Shown piece after piece: positions 1 to 35,492 of a DNA stretch of 64,000 nt. The notes under the pieces are model-generated. The model worked only from the letters and a program-made list of their open reading frames with translations, was not told the DNA's origin and did no database searches. Position numbers and translations under genes: made by a program. Positions within the stretch are counted from its first letter, which is position 1. Each line of letters opens with the position of its first letter. The DNA is from Flavobacteriales bacterium (GTDB lineage Bacteria; Bacteroidota; Bacteroidia; Flavobacteriales; UBA7430): contig CBFIGX010000006.1 of NCBI GenBank assembly GCA_965662265.1, positions 19,050-83,049 of the forward strand. Direction: 5' to 3'.

Positions 1-99
1 TTGAATCTCTAAAGGTATTTGATTGTATAATTGAAGAGCATTAGAGACAATGAAAGCACAAAGGAGATATATGAATATATATATAGACACTATATGAAA

Positions 100-132
100 A
101 AACAAGCGCAGCTATAACAGCTGCGCTTGTTT
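100..132 (-). terminator. Rho-independent terminator downstream of the proteorhodopsin gene
   Basis: Perfect 13-bp inverted repeat aacaagcgcagct (101-113) / agctgcgcttgtt (119-131) with a 5-nt loop. On the minus strand it is followed by a T-run (complement of a97-a102). It starts 7 nt after the stop at 139. Confidence 0.8.
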
Positions 133-138
133 AGAAAT

Positions 139-867
139 TTATTTAGATTCAGAAATTGCAATGTTGTATACAACAAGACCAAATCCAATCTTGTTAATAG
201 CATCTGCAATGTTGTAGAATAAATCAACGTTTTGAGAAGTCCATCCGAACGCTGTGTTCAGCCAACCGCCGTCCATACACATGTAACCAATTGGGTATAT
301 AGCCCAACCTACAAGTACGAACCAAGCTAAGTATCTTACCCCTTTCTTGATAGCTACAGAAGCACTTTTCTCTGCTAACTGTGCTACCTCACCGAACCAG
401 GCAGTATACACCACATAGATGTAACCAAGAGTAGAAATCATACCCCAAGTAACAGAGTGAGAAGTACTACCGCCTTCTGGGTTAAATGCTTCACCAATGT
501 AACCTGCTACAAGCATCCACAACGAAGCAATAATTAGCTTCCATAGTAAACCTCTAGTAGCACCAGCAAGTTTTGTTAATAAATAGAATTCAACACACAT
601 TAATGGAACTGTAAGGATCCAGTCAATATATCTTAGTGCTGTCGGATTTTCTCCAGTTGCTAAATAATAGTCACGCATGTAGTAGTAATGTACTGCAGCA
701 ATACCTGTGATTAATCCTGAGATTAACAATGACATCTGCCATTTTTTGTCTACGGAACTTCTTTCGAAGAAGAAAAATACTGCTGAGGCAAACATTGCCA
801 TGTAGCCTAAGAAAAATGTAAATGCAATTGCATCTGTCTTAGGGATCATTAAAACGTCTAGTAACAT
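139..867 (-). CDS. Proteorhodopsin (light-driven H+ pump, DTE motif, Met at the 105 tuning site)
   Basis: 242 aa, seven hydrophobic helices. RYIDWILTVPLMCVEF gives D/T/E at PR positions 97/101/108 and M at 105. Schiff-base Lys in NIADAINKIGFG. PR-type His in AAVHYYYMRD. GWAIYPIGY helix F motif. Confidence 0.93.
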   Translation of the reverse strand: MLLDVLMIPKTDAIAFTFFLGYMAMFASAVFFFFERSSVDKKWQMSLLISGLITGIAAVHYYYMRDYYLATGENPTALRYIDWILTVPLMCVEFYLLTKLAGATRGLLWKLIIASLWMLVAGYIGEAFNPEGGSTSHSVTWGMISTLGYIYVVYTAWFGEVAQLAEKSASVAIKKGVRYLAWFVLVGWAIYPIGYMCMDGGWLNTAFGWTSQNVDLFYNIADAINKIGFGLVVYNIAISESK

Positions 868-918
868 AATTTAAAGTTTAGTTAGTAATTAAATGGTTTG
901 GTTAATAAAAAGTTGTTG

Positions 919-1425
919 TTATTTCACAAAGAAGTAGCCTCTCATCATGTTGGCATGCCCTGGATAGCTGCAGAAAAATTCGTAGTTATTTTTTTCAGGT
1001 GCTTTAAATTCTAGGATAACAGTTTCTCCAGGTCCAGCCATTGGCGATGCGGCTATAACGTTATCATCTTGTGGAACAAATTCGTATTCAGGGCCTGCTT
1101 CTACAGCTTTTAGTGCCATATCTTTACGAGTTCCATAGTTTACAAAAACAATATTATGAATCATGGCAGGATCAGAGCCTTCGTTAATCAGCTTGATTCT
1201 TACTGAAGCTCCTTCTTTAACTGTGATATTCTTCACAGAAAATGCCATATCCTGCATGGTGTTCCCTGTAGCTCTAATTTCAAATTCCTCCCAAACTTGC
1301 TCAGCTTGTTTTACTTCAATATTTTCTGTAGGAGTTGAAACCTCATCATTTGATTTTGGACTACCACATGAAATAATTGTAGCAATGCCTATACTTACAC
1401 ATATAATTTTTGATATAAACTGCAT
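919..1425 (-). CDS. Azurin/auracyanin-like type-1 (blue) copper lipoprotein
   Basis: 168 aa. Lipoprotein signal ending IISC. Copper ligands MIHNIVF and FFCSYPGHANMMRGYFFVK (Cys, His at +5, Met at +9, as in azurin FFCTFPGHSALMKG). Confidence 0.85.
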   Translation of the reverse strand: MQFISKIICVSIGIATIISCGSPKSNDEVSTPTENIEVKQAEQVWEEFEIRATGNTMQDMAFSVKNITVKEGASVRIKLINEGSDPAMIHNIVFVNYGTRKDMALKAVEAGPEYEFVPQDDNVIAASPMAGPGETVILEFKAPEKNNYEFFCSYPGHANMMRGYFFVK

Positions 1426-1448
1426 AGTTATTTTATAAAAATTCTAGA

Positions 1449-1456
1449 CAAAACTA
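1449..1456 (-). promoter_or_regulatory. Bacteroidota -7 promoter box TAgtTTTG for the cupredoxin-proteorhodopsin unit
   Basis: Plus strand reads caaaacta, so the minus strand reads TAGTTTTG (TAnnTTTG). It lies 24 nt upstream of the ATG at 1425. Confidence 0.5.
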
Positions 1457-1564
1457 TATCAAAAATTATTAACTAGCAATAAATAATTGTAATAAAATGA
1501 ATAATTTGGTTAGGTGTATAGCTCTTTTAAGTGGTTAGTTATCAATGTTTATAATTGTAGTTTG

Positions 1565-1595
1565 TAGGGTTTTAATATGTGTAAAACCCTATTTT
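1565..1595 (+). other. Orphan hairpin followed by TTTT in a non-coding gap
   Basis: tagggtttta (1565-1574) / taaaacccta (1582-1591), 7-nt loop, then tttt. No upstream plus-strand gene for it to terminate. Confidence 0.3.
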
Positions 1596-1661
1596 AAAGG
1601 GCCTACAGAATACACGTAAAAATTACACTTAATAGAGGCGTAATGACTAATAAATAATAGA

Positions 1662-1687
1662 AAAAAGTGATTTTAAATTCACTTTTT
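1662..1687. other. Orphan AT-rich terminator-like hairpin
   Basis: aaaaagtga (1662-1670) / tcacttttt (1679-1687), 8-nt loop, with A-run and T-run flanks on both strands. Only 2 G:C pairs, so it could be chance. Confidence 0.25.
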
Positions 1688-1947
1688 AAACTCAATCCGT
1701 GGGTGTAAATGAGTGAATTTATCTAATTTTAGTCAAATATTTCTCCCAAAAAGTGCTTAAAATGTCCTAATAAAACTATTCAGTTACTAAGAGTATTTTA
1801 TAAAATTTGATGGTTTTTTGTGAAGTGTTAACTCATCAAAATATACTTCAACTAAGTTTAAATACCCAGAAACATCTGTTTAGACGCTCAATTCATCATA
1901 ACCGAAGTTTCCAGTCAGCAATTATTACTAATTTTTTTTTATTTACT

Positions 1948-1955
1948 TACTTTTG
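1948..1955 (+). promoter_or_regulatory. -7 promoter box TActTTTG for the GT9 gene
   Basis: Exact TAnnTTTG match just upstream of the conserved N-terminus of the GT9 ORF. A minus-strand TAatTTTG lies directly adjacent (caaaatta, 1958-1965). Confidence 0.45.
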
Positions 1956-1971
1956 ACCAAAATTAAATATC

Positions 1972-2931
1972 CTGAAAAAATTTTTAGTCATAAGGTTCAG
2001 TTCAATAGGTGATATCGTTTTAACCACACCAGTAATTCGTTGTTTAAAAAAACAGCTTGGCGTGGAATTGCATTATCTCACTAAAAATTCTTTTGCTGGG
2101 CTTCTTGATAACAATCCATATGTTGACAAGGTTCACACGATTGACCATGAGATAGATTCTAATTTGCTAGAAATTTTGAGAGCCGAGAACTATGACTTAA
2201 TTGTAGACTTGCACAACAATCTTCGAACATTTAGGTTGAAAAGAGCTTTGCAAGTAAAGTCTAAATCATTTTCAAAGCTCAATATTCAGAAGTGGTTGTT
2301 GGTAAACTTTAAGTGGAATAGGATGCCGTCTATACATATTGTTGATCGGTATATGCAAACCGTTGAAACTTTAGGTGTAGTAAATGATGGCGCAGGCCTG
2401 GATTATTTTATTCCAACACATTTAGAGGTAGCATTGTCTCGTTTACCATCTCTCCAATCTAATGGATATGTAGCTATTGTTATTGGCGGTCAACACGCCA
2501 CAAAAATGATGACTATTCCTAAGTTAATAGAGCTATGTATGGCGCTCAATGAACCTATTGTTCTTTTAGGAGGACCAGAAGACGAATTGCGTGGTCAACA
2601 CATTCAACAGGCAATCGGAGAGAAGGTATATAACGCTTGTGGGAAGTTTAAGCTCCATGAATCTGCTAGTCTAGTCAAGCAAGCTTCGTGGGTAATTAGT
2701 CATGATACAGGTCTCATGCACATAGCTGCAGCTTTTAAAAAGAAAATTATTTCTGTTTGGGGAAACACAGTTCCTGAGCTTGGGATGTTTCCTTATCTAT
2801 CACATCCAGATTCAGCAATAGTCGAATCCAAAGACTTGTCTTGCAGACCTTGCTCTAAGATAGGATATTCAAAATGTCCTAAAGGTCATTTTAAATGTAT
2901 GGATCACTCTACAGCTGATATTATTCGTTAA
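1972..2931 (+). CDS. Glycosyltransferase family 9 (LPS heptosyltransferase-like); start codon unresolved
   Basis: The track ORF starts at GTG 2062, but the in-frame upstream sequence KKFLVIRFSSIGDIVLTTPVIRCLKKQLG is the typical GT9 N-terminus. An in-frame TGA sits at 1954. Only CTG 1972 or ATC 1969 are available as starts. Confidence 0.75.
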   Translation: MKKFLVIRFSSIGDIVLTTPVIRCLKKQLGVELHYLTKNSFAGLLDNNPYVDKVHTIDHEIDSNLLEILRAENYDLIVDLHNNLRTFRLKRALQVKSKSFSKLNIQKWLLVNFKWNRMPSIHIVDRYMQTVETLGVVNDGAGLDYFIPTHLEVALSRLPSLQSNGYVAIVIGGQHATKMMTIPKLIELCMALNEPIVLLGGPEDELRGQHIQQAIGEKVYNACGKFKLHESASLVKQASWVISHDTGLMHIAAAFKKKIISVWGNTVPELGMFPYLSHPDSAIVESKDLSCRPCSKIGYSKCPKGHFKCMDHSTADIIR

Positions 2932-3656: not shown

Positions 3657-4646
3657 TTATTGAACCAACAACCATGTAGCTTTGCCTTCAGCCCTTATTA
3701 TATTCATTGCATTAACAGCTTCATCTCTATTGCTGTATGAGTTGAAGGCAACTCTATGTAAACCTTGTACACTTTTACCTATAATAGAAGATTTGTAGCC
3801 CTGATTAAGCAGTTGGTTTACCAATTTATTTGCGTTTTCTGTAGATGAAAAACAGCCAGCTACAAGATGGAAGTTATTGATTTCTATAGTTGCTTTAGGC
3901 TCTACTGCTTTTCTAGATTCAATAATTTTCGGTTCTAAAGCCTCGGATGTGAATTCACTAGAAGTAGATTCTGTAATCTCTTCTTTGGTAGTTTCATAAT
4001 TTGTTCTAGGAACATAAACTGCAGCGGGCTTTTCTTTGAAGGGGTTTAGGTAAGCATAATTTTTATAGACTTCATAGACCCTTTCTTGTTGTAAAGATAC
4101 ATACGTGCTAAGACCAATAAGAGCCAGGATAGAAGCAGCCATTTTCCAATTTATTATTGATTTTTGCTGTTTCATTTGCTTGGCACCTCTACTTAATTGT
4201 TTTTGAATATTTAGAGGCGTTGTTTTACGCAAAATGGCAGGAGACTGAATGGCTTCCAATCCAAAAGAGTCTAAAAGATAATTTGTGTTCAAATCTGGTT
4301 CAAATCGAATTAAACCTTGAGCATCTACAGTAAGCATACCTATCTTTTCAAGGGAAGCTTCTTTTTTATGTTCTAAATCGTTAAGAATGGATTTTACAAA
4401 TTGCTCCATCTTGTTAACAGCCTGAGCAAATGAAATGGATTCACATGATGCGATATAGTTTGCAAGTAGTCCATCGTTGTCCTTAAGCTGTACGTTAAAC
4501 CCAATGCTTTTGCTTGGAGGGCTAAGAGTGTGGCTTACAGGGTGAATTTTCGCAGAACGATAGTTGGTGATAAATCCGCCCAATCCAGGTACAATAACAC
4601 AGTCGTGTCTGTATAAAAGGTCGCTGATGTAAGTTTCCAATTTCAT
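3657..4646 (-). CDS. HU-like N-terminal domain / SPOR domain protein (peptidoglycan-binding, single TM)
   Basis: 329 aa. N-terminus LLYRHDCVIVPGLGGFITNY. Central TM helix WKMAASILALIGLSTYV. C-terminal SPOR-like FHLVAGCFSSTENANKLVNQL...HRVAFNSYSNRDEA. Confidence 0.7.
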   Translation of the reverse strand: MKLETYISDLLYRHDCVIVPGLGGFITNYRSAKIHPVSHTLSPPSKSIGFNVQLKDNDGLLANYIASCESISFAQAVNKMEQFVKSILNDLEHKKEASLEKIGMLTVDAQGLIRFEPDLNTNYLLDSFGLEAIQSPAILRKTTPLNIQKQLSRGAKQMKQQKSIINWKMAASILALIGLSTYVSLQQERVYEVYKNYAYLNPFKEKPAAVYVPRTNYETTKEEITESTSSEFTSEALEPKIIESRKAVEPKATIEINNFHLVAGCFSSTENANKLVNQLLNQGYKSSIIGKSVQGLHRVAFNSYSNRDEAVNAMNIIRAEGKATWLLVQ

Positions 4647-4673
4647 AATGCTAAAGTATAAAAAAGCTCACTT

Positions 4674-33263: not shown

Positions 33264-33944
33264 TTAATCAAAATTTATTATTATACCTATTTTGCTGAAA
33301 AGATAAGCGTCATTATTTGCATTACTTATTTGGAGGTCAATATCATCTATGAAAAATAAATGGTGGTCAATACCTGCAACAAGACCTATCGTGTTTGTAA
33401 TATAGTAATAGCATTCTATAGTGGAAACCATATATGGTGCCGTTATTCTTTTTTTGATTGGTGTATAATTATGTGCTTCTTCTTGAAATAAATGCACGTC
33501 AGAAACGTGATAGCCCAATCCGATTCCAATGTGAGATTGAAAATTTGATGGTTGATTTTTTTTCTTGTCGATGATTATACGTCTTTGAGCAGAAAAGCTA
33601 TAGGATTGAAAATCACTGGTAAAAGTATCTGGATTATCTTCCTCATTTTGGCCATTTAAGTGCCCATAACTAGCGTTAAATAATAAATTGTATTTGCTGT
33701 GAATTCTTTTTTTAGCAAAAAAGGTATAGGCTAGATTGTTTTTATTTGCATTCTTGTATCCTTGATCTAGGTCAGTCAATGAAATGCTAGAATTCATTGT
33801 AAAACCAATGCTTATAGCGTTTTTATATACTCCACTCTTGCTAAGGCCAAATTCTTTGTCTATGGTGTTGTATTTTGGTCTTACCTGTGCTATACTAAAT
33901 TGGCTTAGGCAAATTGTTGCAAAAAGAAATATAAAGATCCTCAT
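33264..33944 (-). CDS. Predicted outer-membrane beta-barrel protein, paralog 3 of 3 (uncharacterised family)
   Basis: 226 aa. Signal peptide ending SIAQ, alternating beta-strand pattern, C-terminal IIINFD. Shares GDL/TDL, GLGY and DxxDL blocks with its two neighbours. Confidence 0.65.
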   Translation of the reverse strand: MRIFIFLFATICLSQFSIAQVRPKYNTIDKEFGLSKSGVYKNAISIGFTMNSSISLTDLDQGYKNANKNNLAYTFFAKKRIHSKYNLLFNASYGHLNGQNEEDNPDTFTSDFQSYSFSAQRRIIIDKKKNQPSNFQSHIGIGLGYHVSDVHLFQEEAHNYTPIKKRITAPYMVSTIECYYYITNTIGLVAGIDHHLFFIDDIDLQISNANNDAYLFSKIGIIINFD

Positions 33945-33946
33945 AA

Positions 33947-34762
33947 CTAGTTTATTTTAAAGAACACTCCTGTTTTGAAATTTGTTAAGTAATCAAGTTC
34001 TGATTGGCTAGAATTCATAAGGTCCATATTTTCATTTGCAATTAAGTAATAGTCATAGGCTATTTGTATACCTAGGTTACCCTTAATCATATAGGATGTT
34101 TCAAATCCAATAGGAAAAACCAAACTTTGTATATATCTGCTTATTTTAATGCTATAGTCAGTTTTTTTTCTCAACAAAACACTTGAAGACATATATCCTA
34201 AGCCAATATTAAAAAACACACCAAATTTTTTCTCATTATTGATGTTCTTTAGTTTGGTAAAGCCAATTTTTGTGCGCGAGGTAAAACCTATAAGTGCATA
34301 TTTTCCGGTAACTTCGCTATTGAAAAAGTCATTTGCATTATATGTTGTATTCAGCCCGTCTGTATATGGCTGAGGGTTGTCGTTAATTCCGATATCGGCA
34401 TAGTTACCTAATGACATAAATAATTTCCCAGAAGACCTTGGTGTCCACCTCTTGTTAATAGCAATATTTATATTGGACTGATTGGGCACATCAGTTTGGT
34501 AGCCTTGTAAATCTCCATAAAAGGTAATTAATCCATAGCTAATATCGCAGCTAAAAGCTGTTTTGTATTGTTTGTGATAGCGATTAAGTCCTCTTGATTG
34601 TCGAGAGTTTATTTCATTAACTTGTTCACTCCAATTGTAGTCTGTATTATTTGAATTCTGATTAATTTGAATACTATTATTAATAGGAGAGGTGGCTCTA
34701 TATTGAGCAAAGCCATCAGTACATATAATAAGTGTTATAAGTATAAATTTATAATAGCGCAT
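33947..34762 (-). CDS. Predicted outer-membrane beta-barrel protein, paralog 2 of 3
   Basis: 271 aa from ATG 34762 (MRYYKFILITLIICTDGFAQ signal peptide). FYGDLQG, NIGLGYMSS and FPIGFETSY blocks. C-terminal FFKIN. Confidence 0.65.
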   Translation of the reverse strand: MRYYKFILITLIICTDGFAQYRATSPINNSIQINQNSNNTDYNWSEQVNEINSRQSRGLNRYHKQYKTAFSCDISYGLITFYGDLQGYQTDVPNQSNINIAINKRWTPRSSGKLFMSLGNYADIGINDNPQPYTDGLNTTYNANDFFNSEVTGKYALIGFTSRTKIGFTKLKNINNEKKFGVFFNIGLGYMSSSVLLRKKTDYSIKISRYIQSLVFPIGFETSYMIKGNLGIQIAYDYYLIANENMDLMNSSQSELDYLTNFKTGVFFKIN

Positions 34763-34766
34763 GTGT

Positions 34767-35492
34767 TTAATCAAATTTGTAGCACAAACCAAAGTTCAAA
34801 TTGATTTGATTATCGTAACCATTAATTTTTGATTCGTATAAATCAATAGTATCATTAAGAAAGAAACTATTGGTCATAGAAATAAAAATACCCCAATTTT
34901 TCGGAGTATAATAAGTGGCCTCTATACCTATTGGAATAGCGAATGCCCAAACATCATCTTCAATTTCTCTGATATCTTTTTGTCCAGACAATACCTCTTC
35001 TCCTTCTGGTGTGTATGTGTAAATATCGATGTATTCTGTTAAAATGGCATCTGCATAATAGTATCCTAGACCTGTAATTAAGTGAAGCTGAACCGCAGAT
35101 TCTCGATTAGATCGGTCAAAACTATTCGTTAAAGATCTTCTGTAAGCCATATGAGTGCTAACATATTTACTTCTAAAAACTTTGGTTGGCAGATAGCCGC
35201 TGTGGTCATTCTCACCACTATTTTGACCAGTGTTTAAGGCAATTTGAAGAGAATGACGGTCATTATATTCTTTGTTAAATCGGGTTGAAAGAGAGACGTT
35301 GCTAAGGTATTTTTCTGAAGAAATCTGATGAAGATCTCCAACAAAAAAAGTGCTACCAAAACTTAAGCTACCTGTCCAGTTAATTTCTTGAGTGCTAAGA
35401 GTCTTATCAAATGTGTTAAATCTTGTTTTTTTTTGTGCAAAAACAGAGCTGCTTATTAAGAGAGCAATCGAAAGGAGTAAGCTATGTTTCAT
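34767..35492 (-). CDS. Predicted outer-membrane beta-barrel protein, paralog 1 of 3
   Basis: 241 aa. Signal peptide ending VFAQ. FFVGDLHQ, ITGLGYYYA and IPIGIEATYY blocks. C-terminal LCYKFD. Confidence 0.65.
   Translation of the reverse strand: MKHSLLLSIALLISSSVFAQKKTRFNTFDKTLSTQEINWTGSLSFGSTFFVGDLHQISSEKYLSNVSLSTRFNKEYNDRHSLQIALNTGQNSGENDHSGYLPTKVFRSKYVSTHMAYRRSLTNSFDRSNRESAVQLHLITGLGYYYADAILTEYIDIYTYTPEGEEVLSGQKDIREIEDDVWAFAIPIGIEATYYTPKNWGIFISMTNSFFLNDTIDLYESKINGYDNQINLNFGLCYKFD

What the first reader, a model, noticed from the sequence alone, without database searches (positions are those of the whole stretch)
139..1456. Azurin-like blue-copper lipoprotein apparently co-transcribed with proteorhodopsin
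Seen in the sequence: 919..1425(-) encodes a lipoprotein (lipobox IISC) with a complete type-1 copper site in azurin spacing (MIHNIVF ... FFCSYPGHANMMRGYFFVK). It lies 51 bp upstream of the proteorhodopsin gene on the same strand. The 868..918 spacer has no GC-containing hairpin and no exact TAnnTTTG box. An exact -7 box (TAgtTTTG, 1456..1449) precedes the cupredoxin gene. The only strong terminator (100..132) follows the rhodopsin. Inference: one transcription unit encodes a periplasmic one-electron carrier and a light-driven proton pump. Proteorhodopsin genes are normally discussed alongside retinal genes (blh/crt), which are absent from this window. I know of no described PR-cupredoxin module. 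This may be fortuitous synteny, or it may link light-generated proton-motive force to a copper-dependent respiratory branch.
Basis: partly seen in the sequence, partly recalled or inferred. Interest (0 to 1): 0.55.

Follow-up and report, generated by a model that had tools for sequence, protein, structure and literature searches.

The report
Copper protein inside proteorhodopsin light operon
A small membrane-anchored blue-copper electron carrier sits in front of the proteorhodopsin and retinal-synthesis genes behind one promoter, and that promoter carries a 30-bp control site that across marine Flavobacteriales precedes this copper protein, proteorhodopsin, photolyase-type genes and a B12-type light-sensor regulator, so the copper protein probably belongs to the cell's light response.

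Summary
919..1425(-) encodes a lipoprotein cupredoxin with conserved type-1 copper ligands. It lies 51 bp upstream of a DTE proteorhodopsin (139..867). The only exact -7 box is at 1456..1449 and the only terminator at 132..100. One correction: retinal genes are not absent. blh starts at GTG 90..88 and runs off the window edge.

The adjacency is not fortuitous, but adjacency is not the conserved feature. From the proteorhodopsin side, 1 of 65 informative related loci has the cupredoxin upstream. From the cupredoxin side, 7 of 35 marine species have proteorhodopsin within 2 kb, in three different arrangements.

What is conserved is a 30-bp dyad, TGTATAAC-N14-GTTATACA, overlapping the -7 box. A matrix trained only on proteorhodopsin promoters finds it upstream of 27 of 36 cupredoxin genes, against 10 of 326 other genes (p=6e-25). 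Most of these loci have no proteorhodopsin within 6 kb.

In the window the only hit in 64 kb is 1421..1450, at the cupredoxin promoter. The same dyad precedes CarH-like (MerR/B12) regulator operons.

Best reading: cupredoxin, proteorhodopsin and blh form one, probably light-derepressed, operon. The cupredoxin is closest to auracyanin and azurin. Its physiological partner is unknown. Nothing has been tested experimentally.

The parts
1..90 (-). 5' end of blh (beta-carotene 15,15'-dioxygenase, Brp/Blh family). The start codon is GTG at 90..88, and the gene runs off the window edge.
   Evidence: The translation is VSIYIFIYLLCAFIVSNALQLYNQIPLEIQ. It aligns with Blh N-termini of L015 and L002. A PF15461 gene follows proteorhodopsin in the identical contigs L068-L071 and in L067.
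100..132 (-). Intrinsic-terminator-like hairpin between proteorhodopsin and blh, followed by a T-run. The blh start lies 10 nt after the stem, so blh probably depends on read-through.
   Evidence: It is the only terminator-like site in 1..2200. RNAfold gives dG -23.1 kcal/mol.
139..867 (-). Proteorhodopsin, 242 aa, proton-pump type (DTE motif, Met at the spectral-tuning position, Schiff-base Lys226).
   Evidence: Pfam Bac_rhodopsin 2.5e-44. D82, T86, M90, E93 and K226 are invariant. The protein is identical in L067.
868..918 (-). Cupredoxin-proteorhodopsin spacer. It has no promoter box, no hairpin and no dyad. Its last ~25 nt (892..868, TTAATTACTAACTAAACTTTAAATT) resemble the leader just before the proteorhodopsin ATG in many other loci.
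   Evidence: compare L085-L092, L099, L106-L108, L015, L100.
919..1425 (-). Lipoprotein cupredoxin, 168 aa. It has a signal peptide with lipobox IISC, a disordered linker (residues 21-44) and a type-1 copper domain with ligands His90, Cys152, His157 and Met161.
   Evidence: The AlphaFold2 model has pLDDT above 90 for the domain. The best fold match is auracyanin A, 2AAN, TM 0.89. The profile against PDB sequences gives 2AAN at E 3.5e-21.
1421..1450 (.). 30-bp dyad TGTCTAGAATTTTTATAAAATAACTATGCA (minus strand). It is a diverged copy of the TGTATAAC-N14-GTTATACA operator and overlaps both the -7 box and the cupredoxin ATG.
   Evidence: It scores 17.3 bits and is the only hit in the 64-kb window; the next best is 7.4 bits. 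There were no hits above 12 bits in 20 shuffles. It is conserved in L067 at 20.4 bits.
1449..1456 (-). Bacteroidetes-type -7 promoter box TAGTTTTG.
   Evidence: It is the only exact TAnnTTTG on this strand in 1..1600. It and its surroundings are identical in L067.
1477..1479 (-). Possible -33 element TTG, 20 nt upstream of the -7 box.
   Evidence: Read from the sequence and conserved in L067. The spacing rule comes from my knowledge of Bacteroidetes promoters and was not tested here.

Best explanation
The cupredoxin, proteorhodopsin and blh genes form one transcription unit.
- It starts at a Bacteroidetes promoter with its -7 box at 1456..1449.
- That promoter is overlapped by a 30-bp dyad operator at 1450..1421.
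- A terminator after proteorhodopsin (132..100) probably lets only part of the transcripts reach blh.

The operator belongs to a class (TGTATAAC-N14-GTTATACA) found across uncultured marine Flavobacteriales. There it precedes proteorhodopsin-blh, photolyase/cryptochrome-family genes, pterin-synthesis genes, an operon containing a CarH/LitR-like MerR-B12 regulator, and the orthologues of this cupredoxin whether or not they are near proteorhodopsin.

The likely mechanism is inferred, not shown. The CarH-like protein would bind the dyad over the promoter in the dark and be released by light, so that the copper protein and the proton pump are made together.

The cupredoxin is exported and lipid-anchored. 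It carries one type-1 copper on a flexible tether and should act as a one-electron shuttle at the periplasmic face of the membrane. It is structurally closest to auracyanin and azurin.

Its partner is not identified. The two best candidates are:
- alternative complex III to terminal oxidase, as for auracyanin;
- a periplasmic peroxide or oxidative-damage defence enzyme, as for lipid-modified azurin.
For: Shown by the sequence:
- Gene order, the 51-bp spacer without promoter or hairpin, the single -7 box and the single terminator.
- The blh start 10 nt after the terminator stem.

Shown by comparison:
- A matrix was built only from proteorhodopsin-upstream sites of 80 metagenome loci. It scores above 15 bits upstream of 27 of 36 cupredoxin genes, against 10 of 326 other genes in the same loci (Fisher p=6e-25).
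- Eight of those 10 other genes share a divergent intergenic region with the cupredoxin or proteorhodopsin gene.
- Cupredoxin loci with no proteorhodopsin within 6 kb also have the dyad: L013/14, L017/23, L022/25/26/28, L029/32/33/34, L004-6, L024/30/31/35, L001/12 and L018.
- Controls: 0 of 29 distant Bacteroidota homologues have it, and there are 0 hits in 288 kb of their loci.
- In the window the only hit is at the cupredoxin promoter. The same holds in the other tandem loci.
- In L002, L003 and L011 the cupredoxin is the third gene of a PTPS-FolE2-cupredoxin operon. That operon is divergent from proteorhodopsin, with the dyad in the shared intergenic region.

Contigs chosen only for a CarH-like gene:
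- In L157 a dyad lies before each of these units: the cupredoxin (57% identical to the window protein), PAS-UbiA, the SDR-x-CarH operon and proteorhodopsin-blh-photolyase.
- L154-L156 have a dyad between the CarH gene and a cupredoxin-fasciclin fusion gene.
- The CarH-like proteins keep the Wx9EH and ExHxxG motifs. A review states that these motifs define CarH homologues (PMC8156234).

Other support:
- In Dokdonia MED134 the light-induced genes are proteorhodopsin, crtBI, a MerR regulator, photolyases/cryptochromes and a methionine sulfoxide reductase (bioRxiv 10.1101/2023.12.25.573297). This matches the genes found around the dyads.
- Structure: auracyanin A is the top match by sequence profile and by fold.
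Against: - The window's own dyad is a diverged copy, with 6 of 16 half-site positions off the simple consensus. It scores 17.3 bits, against 20-31 bits for typical sites.
- No CarH-like, photolyase or cryptochrome gene lies in the 64-kb window, so it is unknown whether this genome has the regulator.
- There are no expression data. An unrecognised promoter inside the cupredoxin coding region cannot be excluded.
- The dyad is inverted with 22 bp centre to centre, whereas characterised CarH operators are three or four tandem 11-bp direct repeats. The C-terminal part of the classic B12 motif (the GG) is not evident in the flavobacterial proteins.
- The cupredoxin is not reported among light-induced genes of Dokdonia MED134. 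That strain may simply lack the gene.
- Adjacency is rare from the proteorhodopsin side (1 of 65 informative loci). At least one lineage deleted the cupredoxin from the tandem and left a ~35-nt remnant. Proteorhodopsin therefore does not need this protein.
Confidence: 0.6

Rival explanations
1. The shared dyad is real but belongs to a regulator that does not sense light, for example a metal (Cu, Zn, Fe), redox or oxidative-stress sensor. The cupredoxin and proteorhodopsin would be co-regulated for a reason other than illumination.
For: - The dyad-controlled units include FolE2, the zinc-independent GTP cyclohydrolase that is often under zinc control in other bacteria (my knowledge). They also include glutathione peroxidase, MsrB, Fpg, a NUDIX protein and a SOUL haem-binding protein.
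- The inverted-repeat architecture differs from characterised CarH operators.
Against: - The only DNA-binding regulator that recurs beside the dyads is the MerR-B12 protein with the CarH signature motifs. Its own operon carries the dyad in five independent contigs.
- The gene set matches the experimentally light-induced set of Dokdonia MED134.
Confidence: 0.15
2. The synteny is fortuitous in this genome. The cupredoxin has its own promoter, and proteorhodopsin is transcribed from an unrecognised promoter within the cupredoxin 3' end or the spacer. The two proteins would have no functional relation.
For: - Adjacency is rare among proteorhodopsin loci (1 of 65).
- Gene order around both genes is highly fluid.
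- Bacteroidetes promoters can deviate from the consensus.
- The last 25 nt of the spacer look like the usual proteorhodopsin leader.
Against: - There is no -7 box, even with one mismatch, in 860..1120, and no terminator after the cupredoxin gene.
- Proteorhodopsin genes elsewhere have their dyad plus -7 box directly upstream. In all four tandem loci that unit sits before the cupredoxin gene instead.
- Unlinked cupredoxin orthologues share the operator.
Confidence: 0.12
3. The cupredoxin couples directly to the retinal or proteorhodopsin machinery. For example, it could keep the iron centre of the membrane enzyme Blh reduced, or pass electrons to the flavin-reductase-like proteins that often share its operon.
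For: - The cupredoxin, blh, an uncharacterised ~140-aa protein (c10) and one or two Flavin_Reduct genes recur together in several arrangements.
Against: - Most proteorhodopsin-blh loci lack the cupredoxin, and one lineage deleted it.
- The flavin-reductase-like proteins show no signal peptide, whereas the cupredoxin is exported (read from the sequences).
- No precedent is known to me.
Confidence: 0.05

Closest known systems
Auracyanin A/B of Chloroflexus and Roseiflexus (membrane-tethered type-1 copper proteins, electron acceptors of alternative complex III)
   Same: - It is the best match by sequence profile (2AAN, E 3.5e-21) and by fold (2AAN TM 0.89, 32% identity; 6KOL 35% identity).
- Both have an N-terminal membrane anchor, a flexible linker and a single cupredoxin domain.
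- Both have His/Cys/His/Met ligands.
- Flavobacteria also use alternative complex III (PMC8552683).
   Different: - The host is a Bacteroidota heterotroph with a rhodopsin, not a reaction centre.
- No alternative complex III gene is nearby.
- The redox partner is untested.
- The gene is under a proteorhodopsin-type operator.
Azurin, including lipid-modified azurin (Laz) of Neisseria
   Same: - The fold is azurin-like and the copper loop has the C-x4-H-x3-M spacing.
- It has a lipoprotein anchor like Laz (PDB 2N0M and 3AY2 are among the hits).
   Different: - It scores below the NCBIfam azurin equivalog cut-off (68.6 against 105.1 bits).
- The azurin disulfide cysteines are absent: the only cysteines are Cys20 and Cys152.
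Flavobacterial proteorhodopsin-blh gene pair
   Same: - Proteorhodopsin is followed directly by blh, as in nearly all of the 80 related loci where downstream sequence is available.
   Different: - Here, and in L067, L015 and L100, a cupredoxin gene lies between the regulated promoter and proteorhodopsin.
CarH/LitR B12-dependent light repressor systems (Thermus, Myxococcus, Bacillus, Streptomyces)
   Same: - The regulator has a MerR DNA-binding domain plus a B12-binding domain with Wx9EH and ExHxxG.
- The operator overlaps the promoter.
- The regulator's own operon carries the operator.
- The half-site AAGTTATACA fits the 11-bp repeat nAnnTnnACAn.
   Different: - The operator has two inverted half-sites 22 bp apart, not three or four tandem direct repeats.
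- The targets include a rhodopsin and a cupredoxin rather than only carotenoid genes.
- The promoter is of the Bacteroidetes -33/-7 type.
- Nothing has been tested biochemically.

Membership tests
Type-1 (blue) copper cupredoxin | Cupredoxin fold with His, Cys, His, Met copper ligands | tested here: met
   Pfam Copper-bind 3.8e-13. H90, C152, H157 and M161 are invariant in 22 sequences. The model has pLDDT above 90 over the domain and TM 0.82-0.89 to azurin and auracyanin.
Azurin (TIGR02695 equivalog) | Score above the curated equivalog cut-off | tested here: not met
   68.6 bits against a cut-off of 105.1.
Azurin (TIGR02695 equivalog) | Conserved disulfide (Cys3-Cys26 in Pseudomonas azurin; my knowledge) | tested here: not met
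   The mature protein has a single cysteine besides the lipobox Cys20, namely the copper ligand Cys152.
Auracyanin-like tethered cupredoxin | N-terminal membrane anchor plus flexible linker before the copper domain | tested here: met
   Lipobox IISC with invariant Cys20. Residues 24-39 have pLDDT below 50.
Auracyanin-like tethered cupredoxin | Accepts electrons from alternative complex III | not testable with these tools
   No alternative complex III or oxidase genes lie next to the gene in 66 loci or in the annotated parts of the window.
Proteorhodopsin (proton-pumping, DTE type) | Seven-helix rhodopsin with Schiff-base Lys and Asp/Thr/Glu at the positions of D97/T101/E108 | tested here: met
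   Bac_rhodopsin 2.5e-44. RYIDWILTVPLMCVEF and NKIGFG are present, and D82, T86, E93 and K226 are invariant. The numbering correspondence is from my knowledge.
Proteorhodopsin-blh operon | blh (PF15461) immediately downstream on the same strand | tested here: met
   The same holds in L067, L015 and most of L072-L151.
CarH/LitR light regulon | Regulator with both the Wx9EH and ExHxxG(...)SxV/T(...)GG motifs | tested here: inconclusive
   Wx9EH and ExHxxG are present in all 9 flavobacterial proteins inspected. The distal GG is not evident. No such gene lies in the window itself.
CarH/LitR light regulon | Operator overlapping the promoter of target genes and of the regulator's own operon | tested here: met
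   The dyad overlaps or abuts the -7 box at cupredoxin and proteorhodopsin promoters. It precedes the CarH-containing operons in L017, L023 and L152-L157.
CarH/LitR light regulon | Operator made of tandem 11-bp direct repeats nAnnTnnACAn | tested here: inconclusive
   Each half-site fits the 11-bp consensus and the centres are 22 bp apart. However, the two are inverted, not direct.
CarH/LitR light regulon | Light-dependent and adenosylcobalamin-dependent release from DNA | not testable with these tools
   The only support is indirect: the gene set matches the light-induced genes of Dokdonia MED134.

The most novel reading that the evidence does not exclude
Light switches on a copper-based branch of periplasmic electron transfer together with the proton pump. 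In abundant uncultured marine Flavobacteriales, a B12 photoreceptor would derepress an auracyanin-like carrier at dawn, along with related cupredoxin-fasciclin proteins. Electrons from alternative complex III would then flow through copper rather than haem carriers while proteorhodopsin supplies proton-motive force. This would tie rhodopsin phototrophy to respiration and to copper and vitamin B12 supply.
Probability: 0.2. Interest if true: 0.8.

Novelty: new variant of a known kind. Interest (0 to 1): 0.62.

Why it matters
Proteorhodopsin is among the most abundant light-harvesting proteins in the sea. How flavobacteria integrate it with respiration and with light stress is still unclear, and no regulator of its light induction is established.

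- If the reading is right, a simple 30-bp site predicts the light regulon directly from metagenome-assembled genomes of uncultured Flavobacteriales.
- It names a B12-dependent photoreceptor as the likely switch. Proteorhodopsin expression would then depend on vitamin B12.
- It adds a copper electron carrier to the light response.
- These points give concrete, testable links between light, copper, B12 and energy metabolism.

I found no paper describing a proteorhodopsin-cupredoxin link or a CarH-proteorhodopsin link in the searchable library. That library omits most subscription journals.

Tried and rejected
- **First dyad candidate.** A site at 1515..1545 (3 mismatches, 15-nt spacer) was dropped. 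Its right half is not conserved in the 85% relative L067, and the matrix does not score it. The real site is 1421..1450.
- **Fixed respiratory partner.** None was found beside the cupredoxin. Marine loci have clade-specific neighbours. Distant Bacteroidota homologues sit between histidine kinases, an AsmA-like protein, LpoB and a TPR protein.
- **Regulator and photolyase genes in the window.** A search for CarH-like and photolyase genes found none.
- **Rest of the window.** Pfam annotation of 10-64 kb found only housekeeping genes.
- **Cupredoxin pseudogene remnants.** tblastn upstream of proteorhodopsin found nothing significant. A nucleotide alignment did show a ~35-nt remnant in L094 and L101.
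- **Structured RNAs.** Rfam on 1..2300 gave only sub-threshold hits on the terminator hairpin and no riboswitch.
- **Sigma-70 promoter scan.** It found 14 sites against 10 expected, which is uninformative for a Bacteroidetes genome.
- **Cupredoxin tree.** The neighbour-joining tree is too poorly resolved over 160 columns to count independent gains of adjacency.
Full report
**1. What is in the window**

On the minus strand, 919..1425 encodes a 168-aa protein.
- It has a signal peptide ending in the lipobox IISC.
- Residues 21-44 form a low-complexity stretch that the AlphaFold2 model leaves disordered.
- The cupredoxin domain is modelled with pLDDT above 90.
- It matches Pfam Copper-bind at 3.8e-13.
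- Across 22 homologues, Cys20, His90, Cys152, His157 and Met161 are invariant. This gives a complete type-1 copper site with azurin loop spacing.

After a 51-nt spacer, 139..867 encodes a 242-aa rhodopsin.
- It matches Bac_rhodopsin at 2.5e-44.
- It has the proton-pump residues D82/T86/E93, Met at the tuning position, and the Schiff-base Lys226.

- The spacer is 19.6% GC and has no stable hairpin.
- It has no TAnnTTTG box, not even a one-mismatch version that keeps TTTG, between 860 and 1120.
- TAGTTTTG at 1456..1449 is the only exact -7 box on this strand in 1..1600.
- The hairpin at 132..100 (dG -23.1 kcal/mol) is the only terminator-like site.

**2. One correction: blh is present**

Contigs identical to the window show a BCD/blh gene immediately after proteorhodopsin (L068-L071). 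So does the 85%-identical relative L067. Two convergent DNA-repair-type genes follow: a 2OG-Fe(II) oxygenase and a GIY-YIG/UvrC-like gene.

Window 90..1(-) translates to VSIYIFIYLLCAFIVSNALQLYNQIPLEIQ. This aligns with the N-termini of Blh proteins of other loci.
- blh therefore begins at GTG 90..88, 10 nt after the terminator stem, and runs off the window.
- The reported absence of retinal genes is an edge artefact.
- There is no room for a separate blh promoter. blh is most simply expressed by read-through of the terminator (inference).

**3. Is the adjacency conserved?**

*From the cupredoxin side.* A genome scan returned 66 loci. Proteorhodopsin lies within 6 kb in 7 of them, all among the 35 marine Flavobacteriales loci with 49-62% identity. 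There are three arrangements:
- tandem, as in the window (L015);
- divergent and adjacent (L010, L019);
- divergent with a PTPS-FolE2 pair in between, so that the cupredoxin is the third gene of that operon (L002, L003, L011).

Other neighbours of the cupredoxin are clade-specific. None is a respiratory enzyme.

*From the proteorhodopsin side.* I took the 80 metagenome loci most similar to the window's proteorhodopsin (73-87% identity).
- blh follows proteorhodopsin in nearly all of them where downstream sequence is available.
- Only L100 has the cupredoxin upstream, out of 65 loci with at least 700 nt of upstream sequence.
- L094 and L101 retain about 35 nt of the cupredoxin 3' end in front of proteorhodopsin. 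The gene was therefore deleted from an ancestral tandem there.

Adjacency is recurrent but labile. Proteorhodopsin can do without this protein.

**4. The conserved feature is a shared operator**

Most proteorhodopsin genes are preceded by a dyad, TGTATAAC-N14-GTTATACA. It overlaps or abuts an exact -7 box.

I built a position matrix from 41 distinct proteorhodopsin-upstream sites of the metagenome loci only. I then tested it on the independent genome loci.
- 27 of 36 cupredoxin genes have a site above 15 bits within 150 nt upstream.
- Only 10 of 326 other genes do (Fisher p=6e-25).
- Eight of those ten share a divergent intergenic region with the cupredoxin or proteorhodopsin gene.
- The other two are a PAS-UbiA gene and the first gene of an SDR-GPx-SRPBCC-MerR/B12 operon.

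Most cupredoxin genes with the dyad have no proteorhodopsin within 6 kb. In L002, L003 and L011 the dyad lies before the operon that contains the cupredoxin.

Controls support specificity.
- None of 29 distant Bacteroidota homologues has the site.
- There is no hit above 15 bits in 288 kb of their loci.

**5. The window itself**

The matrix gives exactly one hit in 64 kb, at 1421..1450 with 17.3 bits.
- The next best position scores 7.4 bits.
- Twenty shuffles gave no hit above 12 bits.

The site overlaps the -7 box and the cupredoxin start codon. It is conserved in L067 at 20.4 bits.

It is a diverged copy, with 6 of 16 half-site positions off the simple consensus. That is the main weakness of the case for this particular genome.

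In all four tandem loci the only dyad lies in front of the cupredoxin gene. In close relatives without the cupredoxin it lies in front of proteorhodopsin (L072, L080). Those loci also have 175-900 bp of intergenic sequence before proteorhodopsin, against 51-60 bp in the tandems.

The last 25 nt of the window's spacer resemble the usual proteorhodopsin leader. The simplest reading is that the cupredoxin gene sits between the regulated proteorhodopsin-type promoter and the proteorhodopsin leader, and that the three genes are transcribed together.

**6. Which regulator?**

The MerR/B12 protein next to the cupredoxin in L017 and L023 has Pfam MerR_1 and B12-binding_2 domains.

It has many homologues in marine Flavobacteriales. 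All those inspected keep Wx9EH and ExHxxG. A review states that these two signatures define CarH homologues (PMC8156234). The distal GG of the classic B12 motif is not evident.

I then looked at contigs chosen only because they encode this regulator. The picture repeats.
- L157 carries five dyads of 18-28 bits.
  - One lies between the cupredoxin gene and a YceI-cupredoxin/fasciclin-PTPS-GTP cyclohydrolase unit. This cupredoxin is 57% identical to the window's (E 3e-67) and heads an operon with a zinc-ribbon gene and two Flavin_Reduct genes.
  - One lies before PAS-UbiA.
  - One lies before SDR-x-CarH.
  - One lies in the convergent gap between CarH and the photolyase-related (DPRP) gene; in the related loci L087, L092 and L129 the dyad at that position precedes a conserved ORF of about 55 aa.
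  - One lies before proteorhodopsin-blh-photolyase-like-DUF2805-DPRP.
- L154-L156 carry dyads at three places:
  - between the CarH gene and a cupredoxin-fasciclin fusion followed by GPx, SOUL, Fpg and NUDIX;
  - between PTPS and an SDR gene;
  - before a c10-like/Flavin_Reduct/DPRP unit.

Co-localisation plus a site before the regulator's own operon is the usual comparative criterion for assigning a motif to a regulator.

The gene set also matches the light-induced genes measured in Dokdonia MED134. These are proteorhodopsin, crtBI, a MerR regulator, photolyases and cryptochromes, and a methionine sulfoxide reductase (bioRxiv 10.1101/2023.12.25.573297).

Characterised CarH proteins bind as B12-loaded tetramers over the promoter in the dark and fall off in light. 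The flavobacterial half-site AAGTTATACA fits the CarH 11-bp unit nAnnTnnACAn, and the centres are 22 bp apart. However, the two units are inverted rather than tandem. Repression by a CarH-like protein is therefore an inference. A MerR-style activating mode is not excluded.

**7. What the copper protein does**

By sequence profile and by fold, the closest solved structures are:
- auracyanin A (2AAN; E 3.5e-21; TM 0.89);
- Roseiflexus auracyanin (6KOL);
- azurins, including lipid-modified azurin.

It fails the curated azurin equivalog cut-off (68.6 against 105.1 bits). It also lacks the azurin disulfide. I file it as an auracyanin/azurin-like tethered cupredoxin, not as azurin.

Auracyanin accepts electrons from alternative complex III (PMC8552683), and flavobacteria use that complex. 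A role between that complex and a terminal oxidase is therefore plausible.

The company it keeps in the regulon points elsewhere: peroxidase, methionine sulfoxide reductase, DNA-damage repair genes and photolyases. From my own knowledge, Neisseria lipid-modified azurin protects against peroxide. Together these make a role in periplasmic oxidative-damage defence about equally plausible.

Neither role is testable here. No partner gene is adjacent.

**8. Verdict**

- Co-transcription is likely.
- The functional link is best described as shared regulation, probably by light. It is not shown to be coupling of the pump to a copper respiratory branch.
- I found no description of a proteorhodopsin-cupredoxin or CarH-proteorhodopsin link in the searchable literature. 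That library is incomplete.
- I rate it a new variant of known kinds: the proteorhodopsin-blh operon and a CarH-type regulon.
- Interest is moderate to high, because the prediction is sharp and cheap to test.

Noticed in passing
L087:5887-6066(-), L092:10080-10298(-), L129:5640-5912(-): A conserved small ORF of about 55 aa (MGRKRKLTANEIIDSINNTAPK...FPKGKVRYC) lies just downstream of the CarH-like gene. It is preceded by a high-scoring dyad. It has no annotation.
   Followed up: partly
L015:8241-8666, L002:2133-2555(-), L072:6719-7126; related family at L034:6584-7003: An uncharacterised protein of about 140 aa (clusters c10 and c66) has no Pfam match. It follows blh in many proteorhodopsin loci, and in L029, L032 and L034 it follows the cupredoxin directly. 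It may be another member of the same module.
   Followed up: partly
L152:938-1843, L157:2135-3907, L154:5957-7702(-): Larger proteins fuse a Copper-bind (cupredoxin) domain to one or two fasciclin domains. They lie beside the CarH-like gene with a dyad in between. Stand-alone fasciclin proteins (cluster k11 in L075, L080, L081 and L084) also carry dyads upstream (two in L080, L081 and L084; one weaker site in L075).
   Followed up: partly
window 139..867 against L067:6550-7278: The proteorhodopsin protein is 100% identical between the window and L067. The adjacent cupredoxin is only 85% identical, and Blh is clearly diverged. This suggests unusually strong constraint on, or recent exchange of, the rhodopsin gene.
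   Followed up: no
window 1957..2061(+): The divergent GT9 heptosyltransferase ORF is listed from GTG 2062. The reading frame stays open back to 1957 and encodes a typical family N-terminus (ILKKFLVIRFSSIGDIVLTTPVIRCLKKQLG) with no ATG, GTG or TTG in it. The gene probably starts near 1969-1972 on a non-canonical codon. The intergenic region before the cupredoxin gene would then be about 545 nt, not 636 nt.
   Followed up: partly
window 1426..1968: The long intergenic region upstream of the cupredoxin promoter contains several blocks conserved with L067, for example TTTTACGTGTATTCTG and CATTGATAACTA. Their function is unknown. Rfam finds nothing there.
   Followed up: partly
L068:10267-11689(-), beyond the window's left edge; L080:~3800-4650: A GIY-YIG/UvrC-like gene lies convergent to blh in the window's lineage, together with an AlkB-like 2OG-Fe(II) oxygenase gene. 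The same GIY-YIG family lies directly upstream of proteorhodopsin in L080-L084. DNA-repair genes therefore recur around the proteorhodopsin cassette.
   Followed up: no
window 33264..35492(-): Three consecutive ORFs of 226, 281 and 241 aa have no Pfam match at E<=1e-5. They lie between the fructose-1,6-bisphosphatase and trigger factor genes.
   Followed up: no
L094:4700-4973, L101:450-728: In these loci the cupredoxin was deleted and only a ~35-nt remnant is left. Proteorhodopsin is then left without a recognisable dyad or exact -7 box within 130 nt. How it is transcribed there is unclear.
   Followed up: partly
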